A stretch of 64,000 nt of DNA, taken from positions 33,164 to 97,163 of the forward strand of contig JBDIVR010000015.1 in assembly GCA_039794265.1 (NCBI GenBank), given 5' to 3'. Below the pieces are notes generated by a model. That model ran no database searches and had not been told where the DNA came from. It was given only the letters and a program-made list of their open reading frames with translations. The first letter of the stretch is position 1. Every line of letters begins with the position of its first letter. Origin of the DNA: Myxococcota bacterium. GTDB taxonomy: Bacteria; Myxococcota_A; UBA9160; PR03. A program made the position numbers and the translations under genes. This document shows positions 17,894 to 22,407 of the stretch, in pieces.

Positions 17894-18574
17894 TCAGTAG
17901 CGCGGGGACTCGCGCAGCTCTTCGCGCCGCGGAACGATCTCGATCTCCACCCGCCGATTCTGCTGGCGGCCCGCCTCGGTCGCGTTGGTCGCCAACGGGA
18001 ACTGCTCCCCGAAGCCCATCGCCGTGATGCGCGACGGCGGAACGCCGCCGTTGACGAGGTAGTTGCGCACGTTGTTGGCGCGGTCCTCCGAGAGGCGAAG
18101 GTTGGCTGCCTCGGAGCCGGTCGAATCCGTGTGACCGCGAATCACGACGTTGCTCTCCGGGTAGCTGCGGAGTGTCTGCGCCAGCGAGTTGAGCCGCTGC
18201 GCGGCGCCCGGCGCGATCCTCGAAGAGCCGCTGTCGAAGAACGTGTCACCGGGGAAGGTCACCAGCAGACGATCGGCCTGGCGCTCCACGGTCGCGTCCG
18301 GGATCGCGTCGATCTCGCGCGCCTGGTTGTCGAGGTAGCGGCCGATGAGCCCGCCGGCGACGCCCCCGACGGCGGCGCCGATCAACCCCCCGGCGAGATT
18401 GTCGCCCTCGCCGGCCGCGAGCACGCCGGCGCCGGCGCCGGCGAGACTGCCGAGGACAGCGCCCTGCGTCGTGCGATTGCCCGGAACGGTTTCACAACCG
18501 AGCGTGGCGACGGCGAGAGCGATCGCCGCCACGGTCGCGACGGCGGGCCGGCGCGCGGAAACGTGCGAGTACAT
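17894..18574 (-). CDS. OmpA-family peptidoglycan-associated lipoprotein with glycine-zipper segment
   Basis: 226 aa. The lipobox-like sequence is AVATLGC. A Gly-rich zipper GSLAGAGAGVLAAG...GLIGAAVGGVAGGLIG follows. The OmpA C-like motifs are FDSGSS...GHTDSTGS...NLRLSEDRA...NRRVEI. Confidence 0.85.
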   Translation of the reverse strand: MYSHVSARRPAVATVAAIALAVATLGCETVPGNRTTQGAVLGSLAGAGAGVLAAGEGDNLAGGLIGAAVGGVAGGLIGRYLDNQAREIDAIPDATVERQADRLLVTFPGDTFFDSGSSRIAPGAAQRLNSLAQTLRSYPESNVVIRGHTDSTGSEAANLRLSEDRANNVRNYLVNGGVPPSRITAMGFGEQFPLATNATEAGRQQNRRVEIEIVPRREELRESPRY

Positions 18575-18778
18575 CGGGTTTCCCTTCCCTTCTGAGATGG
18601 ACGCTTATGAGATGGACGTCGATTGGGGGCGGCATGGCTCGGAGCCAGCGTCGCTCCCGGCGCGAGCACTCGGATCCTCATCCGCCGCGATGCGTCCGCT
18701 CGCCTGCCCCCCCCCCGGGTCGAGCGGCCATCGTAATGGGCGGCGCCGGTTCGACGCAAGGGAAGCCCGGGGATTCGC

Positions 18779-18793
18779 TGGAACGATCGCTGC
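18779..18793 (+). promoter_or_regulatory. weaker sigma-54-like motif (TGGAACgatcgCTGC)
   Basis: GG is at 18780-18781 and GC at 18792-18793, so the spacing is correct. There is one mismatch in each box. It lies 71 nt upstream of the orphan terminator hairpin. Confidence 0.3.
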
Positions 18794-18804
18794 CACTTTC
18801 GGCG

Positions 18805-18899
18805 CGCTCGGGCCACTTCATGAGAGGGAAGTCCCACGCCTGGCGGGGCTCTCCGAAAAGGGTGAAAGCAGGGTCTCTCCGGAGACCCTGCTTTCTTCG
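18805..18899 (+). ncRNA. candidate ~95-nt small RNA (predicted only from a promoter-like motif plus a terminator)
   Basis: It is bounded by the -24/-12-like motif (predicted TSS ~18805) and the hairpin ending at 18895 followed by TTC. There is no credible ORF, and both flanking genes are transcribed away from this spacer. Confidence 0.3.
18864..18895. terminator. strong bidirectional-terminator-shaped hairpin (14-bp perfect stem, 4-nt loop)
   Basis: The sequence is GAAAGCAGGGTCTC-tccg-GAGACCCTGCTTTC. An A-run lies 5' and CTTTCTTC lies 3' on the plus strand. ACCCTTTTCGG follows it on the minus strand. Confidence 0.5.
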
Positions 18900-18928
18900 C
18901 CTGCTGCATTTCGAACCTGCTGCATTTC
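18900..18928 (+). repeat. direct repeat, 2 x CCTGCTGCATTTC separated by GAA
   Basis: The copies are at 18900-18912 and 18916-18928. The 3' arm of the adjacent hairpin (CCCTGCTTTC) looks like a degenerate third copy. The repeat lies ~105-130 nt upstream of the comM ATG. Confidence 0.6.
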
Positions 18929-20556
18929 CAATGTTCATCTCGAGCCTCGTCTCGCCTGTGTGACGCGCATCACGTGTGCGAGCCTCGCTCTCCCGACACT
19001 CCTCCGCCCCTCGGTCCCGAGGAGCTCCGCCATGACGCGCGTCCTGGGAGCCGTGCTCTCGGGCGTCGACGGCGTTGCCGTCGAGGTCGAGGTCCGGATC
19101 ACCTCGCACCTGCCGCGGATCGACATCGTCGGCCTGCCGGAGGCGGCCGTTCGCGAAAGCGCCGCGCGCGTGCGCGGCGCCATCGCTGCGATCGGCCAGC
19201 CGTTTCCGCGAGGCTGCGTGACGGTGAACCTCGCGCCCGCTTCGGTGCGCAAGAGCGGCGCGGGGCTCGACCTGCCGATCGCGATCGGAATCCTCGCGGC
19301 GGCCGGCGCGGTCGAAGTGGAGTCGCTGTCGCGTCTGGGTCTGGTCGGCGAGCTGGCGCTCGACGGGCGGCTGCGCCCGGTGCGCGGTGCGCTGGCGCTG
19401 ACCCTCGCGTTGCGCGAAGACGGCTGTACACGCGTCGTCGTGCCGCGAGCGAACGGCGGAGAAGCCGCGCTGACCCCGCGGGTCGAGGTCCTCGCCGCGG
19501 ATGATCTCGGCGCGCTGCTGCGGTTCCTGCTGATCGGGCGAGGCCTGACCCCCGTGCCGCCGCCGAAGCTCCTCGCGAGCTCTACACGACCGAGCGTCGG
19601 AGATCTCGCCGAGGTCAGGGGTCAGGAGCGCGCGAAGCGCGCGCTCGAGATCACCGCCGCCGGCGGCCACGGACTGTTGCTCGAGGGTCCGCCGGGGTCC
19701 GGCAAGACGATGCTCGCGCGCCGACTTCCGGGCCTGCTCCCTCCGCTCCGATTCGAGGAGGCCGTCGAAGCAACGCGCATCCATGGCGCCGCCGGCCGGC
19801 TCGGAGAAGAACCGATCGTTCGCGAGCGACCGTTCCGCGCACCGCACCACGCGGCAAGTCGGGCCGGTCTGCTCGGGGGCGGCTCGCCCCCGCGACCGGG
19901 AGAGATCTCGCTCGCACATCGCGGCGTGCTGTTCCTCGACGAGCTCCCCGAGTTCGACCGAGGCGTGCTCGAATCGCTCCGGCAAGTGCTCGAGGATCGC
20001 CGCGTCGTGGTGGCGCGAGCGGGTGGCACCTGTGTCTTCCCGGCAGACTTCCAACTCGTCGCCGCCGCCAACCCGTGTCCGTGCGGCTGGCGGCTCTCGC
20101 GTTGGCGCGAATGCAGCTGCACCGACGCCCTCGTGCGTCGCTATCGCGCGCGCGTGTCGGGTCCGCTGCTCGACCGCATCGATCTCCACGTCTCGGTCCC
20201 AGCCGTGGATTGGCAGGCTCTCGATTCGGGTCCGGTCGGAGAACCGAGCGACGTGCTGCGCGCTCGCGTCGCGGCGGCACGGGCGCGCCAACGCGAGCGC
20301 CTCTCGTTCGTCGGTGCGCGCTGCAATGCGGAGATCCCAGACCGCTCGCTGGACGCCGCCGTCGCGGCCACGCCCGACGCGCGCACGCTGCTCGGACGCG
20401 CCGTCGAGCGACTGCGTCTGTCCGCGCGTGCCGCTCACCGCTGTCTGCGGACGGCGCGCACCGTGGCCGATCTCGCCGAGGAGGAGCGCGTCGGCCCGGT
20501 GGCACTCGCGGAGGCGCTCTCCTATCGCCGCGGGGAGGCCGACGTCGAAGGAGGCG

Positions 20557-22407
<1,851 letters not shown>

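What the first reader, a model, noticed from the sequence alone, without database searches (positions are those of the whole stretch)
18779..18928. Candidate ~95-nt sRNA: a -24/-12-like motif plus an orphan terminator in a divergent spacer
Seen in sequence. The 457-bp spacer between the ompA-like gene (start 18574, minus) and comM (start 19032, plus) contains a perfect 14-bp stem, GAAAGCAGGGTCTC-tccg-GAGACCCTGCTTTC (18864-18895). It has an A-run 5' and CTTTCTTC 3', and CCCTTTT follows on the other strand. That is the shape of a bidirectional intrinsic terminator, yet no annotated gene ends here. A motif TGGAACgatcgCTGCC (18779-18794) with correct GG-N10-GC spacing lies 71 nt upstream. Together they would bound a transcript of roughly 18805-18899 with no credible ORF. 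Directly after the hairpin the 13-mer CCTGCTGCATTTC occurs twice (18900-18912 and 18916-18928), and the 3' arm of the hairpin looks like a degenerate third copy. Established knowledge: sigma-54-type promoters have been reported for bacterial sRNAs (for example Pxr of Myxococcus xanthus). I claim no homology. Inference: this is an unannotated small RNA, or alternatively a regulatory insulator for comM.
Basis: partly seen in the sequence, partly recalled or inferred. Interest (0 to 1): 0.6.

Follow-up and report, generated by a model that had tools for sequence, protein, structure and literature searches.

The report
Conserved structured RNA leader before comM
The hairpin is real and belongs to a roughly 78-nt two-hairpin RNA with its own promoter-like box, found just upstream of the DNA-repair/transformation helicase gene comM in about 90 uncultured Myxococcota-type sequences and absent from Rfam; it is a new RNA family, most likely a regulatory leader of comM, not a sigma-54-driven sRNA.

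Summary
The 14-bp hairpin (18864-18895) is not an orphan terminator. It is the 3' hairpin (P3) of a conserved RNA motif on the + strand (covariance-model match 18829-18898, 56.7 bits).

The motif is present in 8 species genomes and about 85 metagenome contigs:
- a box GACAC-N16-CCAC with fixed spacing (GCCAC in the window clade), promoter-like;
- a small hairpin P2 (GYCCC/GGGRC, loop ending CCUGGC);
- a conserved linker;
- a 15-17-bp hairpin P3, with 8 pairs showing compensatory changes and G-U pairs only on the + strand.

Wherever enough DNA is held, comM follows on the same strand, except in one subclade. P3 ends a median 53 nt, and as little as 31 nt, before the start codon. A conserved CGGUCCCG-GGAG box lies between them, so the motif sits inside the comM leader.

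Five loci keep box plus RNA but have no comM downstream, so the short RNA is also selected on its own.

Rfam 15, ARAGORN and the literature searches found no known family.

The sigma-54-like motif occurs at chance frequency, and its TGG is not conserved even in the two closest relatives. The second 13-mer copy is a window-specific 16-bp duplication.

Verdict: a real, new RNA family. The regulatory mechanism is inferred, not shown.

The parts
18792..18796 (+). Box 1 (GCCAC here, GACAC in the rest of the family); candidate -35-like promoter element
   Evidence: Invariant GMCAC at a fixed distance from CCAC: 25 nt inclusive in 74 of 82 sequences and 26 nt in 8. It is the only GMCAC-N16-CCACT in the window. 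Family-wide conservation begins here; the DNA upstream is not conserved.
18813..18817 (+). Box 2 (CCACT); candidate -10-like promoter element. Predicted transcription start about 18822-18825 (inferred).
   Evidence: CCAC is nearly invariant (CTAC in 3 sequences), always 16-17 nt after box 1, and the sequence between them is not conserved. Its assignment as a promoter is an inference.
18827..18853 (+). P2 small hairpin: core 5' strand GUCCC (18831-18835), loop ACGCCUGGC (18836-18844), core 3' strand GGGGC (18845-18849). The range given includes flanking pairs from the predicted fold.
   Evidence: Predicted in the window RNA fold. In the family the loop varies from 6 to 14 nt while both strands are kept. 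The pair X4:+6 is C-G in 55 sequences, U-G in 16, U-A in 4 and never C-A.
18850..18863 (+). Conserved linker (UCUCCGAAAAGGGU here; CUUUUCAARRGUG in most members)
   Evidence: Near-invariant columns in alignments A3 and A4. The window clade's linker is 2 nt longer.
18864..18895 (+).
   Evidence: 98.1% of cells pair, against 39-60% when the 3' partner is slid. 8 of 15 pairs show changes on both sides, and 0 of 500 shuffles reach the covariation score. RNAalifold recovers the helix. L016 has a compensatory A-U to G-C change. The homologous hairpin in L031 and L122 passes the terminator scan; the window's does not.
18829..18898 (+). Extent of the match to the family covariance model R1
   Evidence: 56.7 bits, E = 2e-10, full-length match. 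The opposite strand scores only 24 bits. There is one copy in the 64-kb window.
18900..18931 (+). Window-specific 16-bp tandem duplication (CCTGCTGCATTTCGAA / CCTGCTGCATTTCCAA)
   Evidence: Exact 13-mers. There is a single copy in L016 and a diverged single copy in L001. It is not part of the family motif.
19001..19024 (+). C-rich run (19001-19012), CGGUCCCG box (19012-19019) and Shine-Dalgarno GAGGAG (19019-24) of comM
   Evidence: GUCCC[GC] lies 15-24 nt before the start codon in most of the 64 of 73 distinct leaders that carry it. It is absent upstream of comM in relatives that lack the RNA. It is complementary to the P2 3' strand; that this pairing forms is an inference.
19032..20600 (+). 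comM (YifB/ComM AAA+ helicase), the gene downstream of the motif
   Evidence: Pfam ChlI, Mg_chelatase and Mg_chelatase_C, E = 4e-88. It lies downstream of the motif in every locus with enough DNA except one subclade.
18716..18790 (.). Extra conserved block shared only by the window, L001 and L016; function unknown
   Evidence: Almost invariant in three species while the flanks diverge. Found in no other locus.

Best explanation
The hairpin is part of a conserved, structured 5' leader RNA of the comM transcript.

Inferred: a dedicated promoter-like box (GMCAC-N16-CCAC) starts transcription about 6-8 nt after CCAC.

Shown by covariation and conservation: the first 75-80 nt fold into a small hairpin P2, a conserved linker and a long G+C-rich hairpin P3.

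Inferred from spacing: transcription continues into comM.

Inferred mechanism: the leader acts in cis after initiation. P3 works as a leaky or regulated terminator or roadblock (an attenuator). The conserved unpaired parts are the likely contact for an unknown factor (protein, ligand or RNA) that sets how much comM is made. These parts are the P2 loop CCUGGC, the linker, and the C-rich/CGGUCCCG segment next to the ribosome-binding site.

Termination or processing at P3 would also release a stable RNA of about 78 nt. That would explain why box plus RNA persist in a lineage that has no comM at this locus.
For: 1. Homologues were found through ComM and, without reference to any gene, through a DNA pattern. 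93 loci were kept by a hairpin filter; 82 had enough flank for analysis, 81 with a distinct RNA sequence.
2. P3: 98.1% paired, 8 pairs with compensatory changes, and both controls clearly lower. G-U pairs occur on the + strand only. The covariance model scores 56.7 bits on the + strand against 24 on the - strand.
3. comM lies on the same strand downstream in every locus with enough DNA except one subclade.
4. From the P3 end to the start codon is a median 53 nt and a minimum 31 nt, too short for a separate promoter.
5. The RNA is as conserved as the comM coding sequence (71% against 70.5% mean pairwise identity). Flanking non-coding DNA is 20-31%.
6. The CGGUCCCG box next to the Shine-Dalgarno sequence is present in 64 of 73 leaders. 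It is absent where the RNA is absent.
7. The P3 homologues in L031 and L122 meet the terminator consensus (16-bp stem plus AUUUUU), 59 and 53 nt before comM.
8. The fixed 16-nt spacing of the two boxes, with an unconserved spacer and conservation starting at box 1, fits a promoter.
9. The window RNA folds into P2 plus P3 with z = -3.87.
Against: - No transcript data exist. The promoter, the transcription start and read-through are all inferences.
- Most members, including the window, lack a U-tract after P3, so P3 is not a canonical terminator in them.
- Five loci keep the RNA without comM downstream. This fits a trans-acting RNA better than a purely cis element.
- In the window itself, 136 nt lie between P3 and comM. 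They include a duplication and a CRP-like site, so comM could have its own promoter here.
- The proposed pairing of the P2 3' strand with CGGUCCCG is disfavoured by a median 4.9 kcal/mol and takes only about 13% of the predicted ensemble. It cannot be tested by covariation because both strands are invariant.
- The factor that would be sensed is unknown.
Confidence: 0.5

Rival explanations
1. It is a stand-alone trans-acting small RNA gene of about 78 nt with its own promoter, possibly of the ECF-sigma type, and P3 as its terminator or 3' protective hairpin. It regulates other mRNAs by base pairing or by titrating a protein. comM merely lies downstream and is read through or separately expressed.
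For: - In five distinct loci, conservation runs exactly from box 1 to the end of P3 while both flanks have diverged. No comM follows; a convergent ABC transporter gene does.
- There is one copy per locus, and sequence is conserved in unpaired regions as in seed-bearing sRNAs.
- P3 is terminator-like in some lineages.
- The box has the rigid spacing typical of alternative sigma factors.
- An OmpA-family gene is the divergent neighbour in about 20 loci. From general knowledge, this recalls the sigma-E-dependent sRNAs that target outer-membrane protein mRNAs.
Against: - Linkage to comM is near-universal, co-oriented and very tight (31-60 nt), which leaves no room for a separate comM promoter.
- A conserved box next to the comM ribosome-binding site co-occurs with the RNA.
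- Most members have no U-tract.
- No target was identified.
- No second gene with the same box was found in 820 kb of related DNA.
Confidence: 0.3
2. It is a metabolite- or ion-sensing riboswitch. P2, the linker and the base of P3 form the aptamer. P3, or the C-rich/CGGUCCCG segment, is the expression platform for comM.
For: - Unpaired nucleotides are highly conserved next to covarying helices.
- A terminator-like hairpin lies in a 5' leader.
- The ribosome-binding site is predicted to be about 73% paired, mostly with the C-rich spacer.
- CCCUG in the P2 loop could pair with CAGGG of the P3 5' arm as an antiterminator or pseudoknot. This is read from the sequences and is only consistent with the data, not proven.
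Against: - The motif is associated with a single gene family only.
- The architecture is very simple, with two hairpins and no multi-stem junction.
- It persists without a downstream regulated gene in one clade.
- No covariation supports a pseudoknot or an alternative helix.
Confidence: 0.12
3. One reading: a sigma-54 (-24/-12) promoter at 18779-18794 drives a 95-nt sRNA that ends at an orphan bidirectional terminator, or the element is a DNA-level insulator between ompA and comM.
For: The GG-N10-GC spacing is present in the window. The hairpin has T-rich sequence on both strands.
Against: - The TGG is not conserved in the two closest relatives, and the motif is absent in the rest of the family.
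- TGG-N9-TGC occurs 49 times in the window.
- The terminator scan finds nothing in 18300-19300.
- The evidence is asymmetric in favour of the + strand.
- No gene ends at the hairpin, and in most loci the upstream gene is different.
Confidence: 0.03

Closest known systems
Orphan structured 5'-leader / candidate cis-regulatory RNA motifs found by comparative genomics (for example the 224 motifs of Weinberg et al. 2017, PMC5737381)
   Same: A short conserved non-coding motif upstream of a specific gene, with covarying helices, conserved unpaired nucleotides and, in some members, a terminator-like hairpin before the start codon. It was detected mostly in metagenomes.
   Different: No Rfam 15 family matches the window or eight typical members. 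The association with comM has not been described in anything I could find. The motif also carries a conserved promoter-like box and survives as an orphan in one clade.
Pxr sRNA of Myxococcus xanthus
   Same: A small non-coding RNA of about 80-110 nt with several stem-loops, from a Myxococcota-type genome, with its own promoter.
   Different: Pxr lies between nla19 and an NADH dehydrogenase gene, is transcribed from a sigma-54 promoter, has three stem-loops and is confined to the Cystobacterineae. Here the neighbours are ompA-like and comM, the sigma-54 motif is not conserved, there are two hairpins, and a 26-nt Pxr sequence deduced from the published probe has no match in the window at up to 3 mismatches.
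Transcription attenuators and riboswitch leaders whose terminated 5' fragment also acts as an sRNA (for example the Listeria SreA SAM riboswitch; from my own knowledge)
   Same: A leader with a terminator-like hairpin immediately upstream of the regulated gene, and a short 5' product that could have its own function.
   Different: No ligand, no demonstrated alternative structure and no demonstrated trans target. Most members have no U-tract.
ECF-sigma-dependent promoters and their sRNAs (for example the HrpL 'hrp box' GGAACC-N15/16-CCAC, and the sigma-E-dependent MicA/RybB; recalled from memory, a lead and not a test)
   Same: A bipartite box with a rigid 16-17-nt spacer and a CCAC second element. 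An outer-membrane-protein gene is a frequent neighbour.
   Different: The first element is GACAC or GCCAC, not the GGAAC/AAC typical of ECF -35 elements. No sigma gene or second promoter with the same box was found in 820 kb. The sigma factor is unassigned.

Membership tests
Any Rfam 15 family | A covariance-model match at or near the family's gathering score | tested here: not met
   Permissive E-value scan of 18400-19200: best E = 0.42, to eukaryotic SmY and miRNA models far below their thresholds. Whole window at gathering thresholds: 0 hits. Eight typical family members: only junk hits.
tRNA / tmRNA | Detected by ARAGORN | tested here: not met
   0 genes in the window.
Sigma-54 (-24/-12) promoter | GG-N10-GC with a good match to TGGCAC-N5-TTGCW | tested here: inconclusive
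   The spacing is correct, but the match is weak (TGGAAC-N5-CTGCC). The loose pattern occurs 49 times in 64 kb.
Sigma-54 (-24/-12) promoter | Conservation of the -24 GG and -12 GC in orthologous spacers | tested here: not met
   TGG is CCC in L001 and GCG in L016. The motif is absent in the rest of the family.
Pxr sRNA | Location between nla19 and the NADH dehydrogenase gene, a sigma-54 promoter, and Pxr sequence | tested here: not met
   Pxr context taken. The window context is ompA-like and comM. The probe-derived Pxr sequence has no match.
Intrinsic (Rho-independent) terminator | A G+C-rich stem followed by a U-tract (at least 5 T in 8) | tested here: inconclusive
   Not met in the window or in most members. 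Met by the homologous hairpin in L031 and L122.
Intrinsic (Rho-independent) terminator | Lies at the 3' end of a transcription unit | tested here: not met
   No gene ends here. The upstream ompA-like gene is divergent and comM starts downstream. It would have to be a leader (attenuator) terminator.
Riboswitch | A conserved aptamer with covarying helices and conserved unpaired nucleotides | tested here: inconclusive
   P3 covaries strongly and P2 weakly. The architecture is simple.
Riboswitch | Association with several functionally related gene families, and a ligand | tested here: not met
   The motif is found only upstream of comM or as an orphan. A ligand cannot be tested with these tools.
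ECF-type promoter | A bipartite box with a rigid 16-17-nt spacer | tested here: met
   25 nt inclusive in 74 of 82 sequences and 26 nt in 8 of 82.
ECF-type promoter | An AAC-containing -35 element, and the same box in front of a sigma/anti-sigma operon | tested here: not met
   The first element is GACAC or GCCAC. Only 2 chance-level extra matches were found in 820 kb. Complete genomes were not available.
Protein-coding leader / small ORF | A reading frame preserved among homologues | tested here: not met
   Loop lengths differ by 1, 2 and 4 nt among homologues, and no start codon is conserved.

The most novel reading that the evidence does not exclude
The motif is a new class of sensor RNA, either a riboswitch or the binding site of a dedicated protein. 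It gates expression of the ComM branch-migration helicase in a large uncultured Myxococcota-type lineage. It is driven by an alternative (ECF-like) sigma factor and doubles as a trans-acting sRNA. That would be a previously unknown stress-to-recombination/repair regulatory circuit.
Probability: 0.15. Interest if true: 0.75.

Novelty: new member of a known kind. Interest (0 to 1): 0.55.

Why it matters
ComM/YifB is nearly universal in bacteria. Its regulation has been studied mainly in naturally competent Proteobacteria (from my own knowledge). A leader RNA that is as conserved as the gene itself, is present in about 90 environmental sequences and is absent from Rfam gives a concrete, testable handle on how and when a major soil and sediment lineage turns comM on. 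It also adds a well-supported new family to the catalogue of bacterial structured RNAs. It comes with clear anatomy (promoter-like box, two hairpins, a box next to the ribosome-binding site) and a natural 'orphan' clade that separates cis from trans function. For annotation, it explains a 457-bp 'empty' spacer.

Tried and rejected
- Rfam, both permissive and at gathering thresholds, on the window and on typical members: nothing.
- ARAGORN: nothing.
- Sigma-70 promoter and terminator scan of the spacer: nothing.
- Sigma-54 reading: rejected.
- TRF for the direct repeats: nothing; two copies score too low.
- Hairpin as a repeated (REP/MITE-like) element: rejected. It is unique in the window and there is one covariance-model hit per locus.
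- Motif in more distant comM loci L009-L015 (ComM 43-52% identical, including a Polyangiaceae MAG): absent.
- Regulon search for the box GACAC-N16-CCAC in 820 kb: only 2 chance-level extras.
- Helix between CCAC and the invariant GUGG, or with nearby sequence. Both partners are invariant or the pairing is inconsistent, so there is no evidence (my reading of the sequences).
- Pseudoknot between the P2 loop and the linker (CUCU/AGAG, CCCU/AGGG): many C-A mismatches, not supported (my reading of the sequences).
- Long-range helix GCGGGGCU/CGGUCCCG: thermodynamically disfavoured (median +4.9 kcal/mol) and untestable by covariation.
- tmRNA-like reading of GGTTCGACGCAAGGG in the upstream block: no support.
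- Exact look-up of the window's ComM in public assemblies: not on record.
- Literature searches for a comM/yifB-linked RNA: nothing relevant; 'comM' mostly matched journal abbreviations.
- Pxr homology: rejected.

Full report
**Observation.** The region reads exactly as the first-stage reader described.
- A 457-bp spacer lies between an OmpA-family lipoprotein gene (17894-18574, minus) and a ComM/YifB gene (19032-20600, plus). Pfam confirms both.
- A perfect 14-bp stem with a 4-nt loop lies at 18864-18895.
- The 13-mer CCTGCTGCATTTC occurs at 18900-18912 and 18916-18928.
- TGGAACgatcgCTGCC lies at 18779-18794.
- The stem sequence is unique in the window.
- Rfam gives only junk hits in the spacer and no hit in the whole window. 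ARAGORN finds nothing. The consensus scan finds neither a sigma-70 promoter nor a terminator in 18300-19300.

**Relatives.** A ComM-based scan of one genome per species returned 18 loci.
- The two closest (L001, ComM 86% identical; L016, 89%) share an almost invariant block of about 200 nt (window about 18716-18915). The rest of the spacer is diverged and full of indels.
- Within that block the hairpin shows a compensatory A-U to G-C change in L016 and a larger loop in L001.
- The second 13-mer copy is missing in both relatives. The window therefore carries a private 16-bp tandem duplication (18900-18915 and 18916-18931).
- Six more distant loci (ComM 64-68% identical; MAGs labelled Myxococcota or 'Deltaproteobacteria') carry a recognisable version of the hairpin and the sequence 5' of it.

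**Spread in metagenomes.** An IUPAC pattern taken from the shared core, with no reference to any gene, hit 110 metagenome stretches.
- About 85 of them carry the full motif. The rest look like chance matches in coding sequence.
- Counting the genome loci and the window, 93 loci passed a hairpin filter. Of these, 82 had enough flank for analysis, 81 with a distinct RNA sequence.

**Anatomy of the family**:
- (T)GACAC, then 16 nt that are not conserved, then CCAC(T);
- 10-25 variable nt;
- a small hairpin P2 (GYCCC / GGGRC) whose loop varies from 6 to 14 nt but always ends in CCUGGC or a close variant;
- a conserved linker, CUUUUCAARRGUG;
- a long hairpin P3 (GAAGGCAGGG...CCCUGCCUUC with a variable top);
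- a pyrimidine-rich tail.

The window clade (window, L001, L016) is a divergent variant:
- GCCAC replaces GACAC;
- the linker is 2 nt longer;
- the P3 base is GAAAGC/GCUUUC in the window and L001, and GAAGGC/GCCUUC in L016;
- there is an extra upstream block of about 75 nt that no other locus has.

**Is it RNA, and on which strand?**
- RNAalifold recovers P3.
- On alignment A3, 98.1% of 1215 cells pair, against 39-60% when the 3' partner is slid by 1-3 columns. Eight of 15 pairs have changes on both sides, and 0 of 500 shuffles reach the observed covariation score.
- Many pairs are G-U or U-G on the + strand. On the - strand these would be C-A mismatches.
- Covariance model R1 finds one full-length + strand hit per locus. 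It scores the window at 56.7 bits (18829-18898), against 24 bits for the - strand, and finds nothing in the chance-hit loci or in L009-L015.
- P2 has weaker support. The 5-bp core is always pairable, though I partly selected for that. At the one variable position the pair is C-G in 55 sequences, U-G in 16, U-A in 4 and never C-A. Tolerance of loop insertions also fits a hairpin.
- The window's predicted 78-nt RNA (18822-18899) folds into P2 plus P3 at -43.1 kcal/mol, z = -3.87.
- Loop-length differences of 1, 2 and 4 nt exclude a coding function.

**The box.**
- GMCAC and CCAC span exactly 25 nt inclusive in 74 of 82 sequences and 26 nt in the other 8.
- The 16 nt between them are not conserved and show no consistent self-complementarity.
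- Family-wide conservation starts at box 1.
- This is the signature of a two-element promoter read by a sigma factor. That is an inference.
- It is not sigma-70-like in the scan, and the T's before GACAC vary.
- From memory, it resembles ECF-type boxes, for example the HrpL box GGAACC-N15/16-CCAC. Its first element lacks the AAC, however, and I found no second gene with this box in 820 kb of related DNA.
- The loose -24/-12 pattern occurs 49 times in the window.

**Context.**
- In every motif locus with enough downstream DNA, comM follows on the same strand, with one exception described in the next point.
- The exception is a subclade of five distinct loci, L024, L058, L064, L076 and L085 (L074 is probably a sixth, but it is cut off after the hairpin). 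There a convergent ABC-2 permease/ATPase pair follows instead.
- An OmpA-like gene is the divergent upstream neighbour in about 20 loci.
- The distance from the P3 3' end to the comM start codon has a median of 53 nt and a minimum of 31 nt. That is too short for a separate promoter plus leader, so in those lineages comM must be transcribed through the motif.
- Between P3 and the start lie a C-rich run and a CGGUCCCG box directly 5' of the GGAG Shine-Dalgarno sequence. GUCCC[GC] is present in 64 of 73 distinct leaders, in most of them 15-24 nt before the start.
- The box is absent upstream of comM in the relatives that lack the RNA.
- The RNA (P2-P3) has 71% mean pairwise identity and the first 450 nt of comM have 70.5%. 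The flanking non-coding DNA has 20-31%.

**The orphan clade.** In those five loci the sequence from box 1 to the end of P3 is almost identical, while the DNA on both sides has diverged. The sister locus L045 has nearly the same RNA with comM directly downstream. Box plus RNA are therefore under selection even without comM in cis.

**Is P3 a terminator?**
- In L031 and L122 the homologous hairpin (16 bp, then AUUUUU) passes the terminator scan, 59 and 53 nt before comM.
- In most members, including the window and the orphan clade, the tail is pyrimidine-rich without a U-run.
- P3 is therefore best described as a leader hairpin that is terminator-like in some lineages.

**Mechanism.**
- The best-supported reading is a structured 5' leader of comM with its own promoter, acting in cis after initiation. 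The control would be attenuation at P3 and/or control of the ribosome-binding site.
- The short 5' product would be stable enough to have been kept on its own in one clade.
- In ensemble folding the Shine-Dalgarno sequence is about 73% paired, mainly with the C-rich spacer.
- CGGUCCCG is complementary to the P2 3' strand (7 bp including G-U pairs). That would give a P2 / long-range switch. However, this conformation is a median 4.9 kcal/mol less stable and takes about 13% of the ensemble. Both strands are invariant, so covariation cannot test it.
- CCCUG in the P2 loop could pair with CAGGG of the P3 5' arm as an antiterminator or pseudoknot. The variation seen (C/U opposite G) is only consistent with that, not proof.
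- What is sensed is unknown.
- The main rival is a genuine trans-acting sRNA. A riboswitch is a less likely special case. The sigma-54 and insulator readings are contradicted.

**The window itself.** The motif is a somewhat atypical member.
- It lies 136 nt from comM.
- It has a private duplication.
- It has a CRP/FNR-like site (18959-18974), shared with L016, between P3 and comM.
- It has a clade-specific conserved block upstream of the box.
- comM may therefore have additional control here.

**Comparison with known families and novelty.**
- No Rfam family matches.
- Six literature searches found no RNA linked to comM or yifB.
- I rate it a new member of a known kind: a new family of bacterial structured leader RNA / sRNA. 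It is well supported as an RNA. Its mechanism is plausible but unproven.

Noticed in passing
window 18959-18974: TGTGA-CGCGCA-TCACG matches the CRP/FNR-type consensus TGTGA-N6-TCACA at 9 of 10 positions. It lies between the RNA hairpin and the comM start. It is conserved in L016 and absent in L001. It could mark a separate, regulator-dependent comM promoter in this clade.
   Followed up: no
window 18716-18790 (C10 run at about 18708-18717 on its 5' edge): A block of about 75 nt (GGGTCGAG...GCGCCGGTTCGACGCAAGGGAA...GGGGATTCGC) is almost invariant in the window, L001 and L016. None of the other 126 loci has it. A possible stem GUCGAGC/GUUCGAC shows an A-U to G-U change. It could be an upstream extension of the RNA, an activator site or the control region of the ompA-like gene. 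A run of ten C's flanks it.
   Followed up: partly
   Followed up: no
L024, L058, L064, L076, L085 (motif at e.g. L058 4698-4768, minus strand of the locus): A subclade keeps the promoter-like box and the RNA almost unchanged but has no comM downstream. A convergent ABC-2 permease and ATPase pair follows after 250-350 nt of unconserved DNA.
   Followed up: partly
L031 4113-4148 (-), L122 2808-2844 (+): In these members the homologous hairpin is followed by AUUUUU and passes the intrinsic-terminator scan, 53-59 nt upstream of comM. The U-tract therefore comes and goes within the family.
   Followed up: yes
window 18345-20600 (+) and 18382-18909 (-): Long mechanical ORFs run across the spacer (751 aa and 175 aa), as is usual for high-G+C DNA. 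The 751-aa ORF extends comM upstream through the RNA motif and would mislead an ORF-based annotation. The conserved start is the ATG at 19032.
   Followed up: partly
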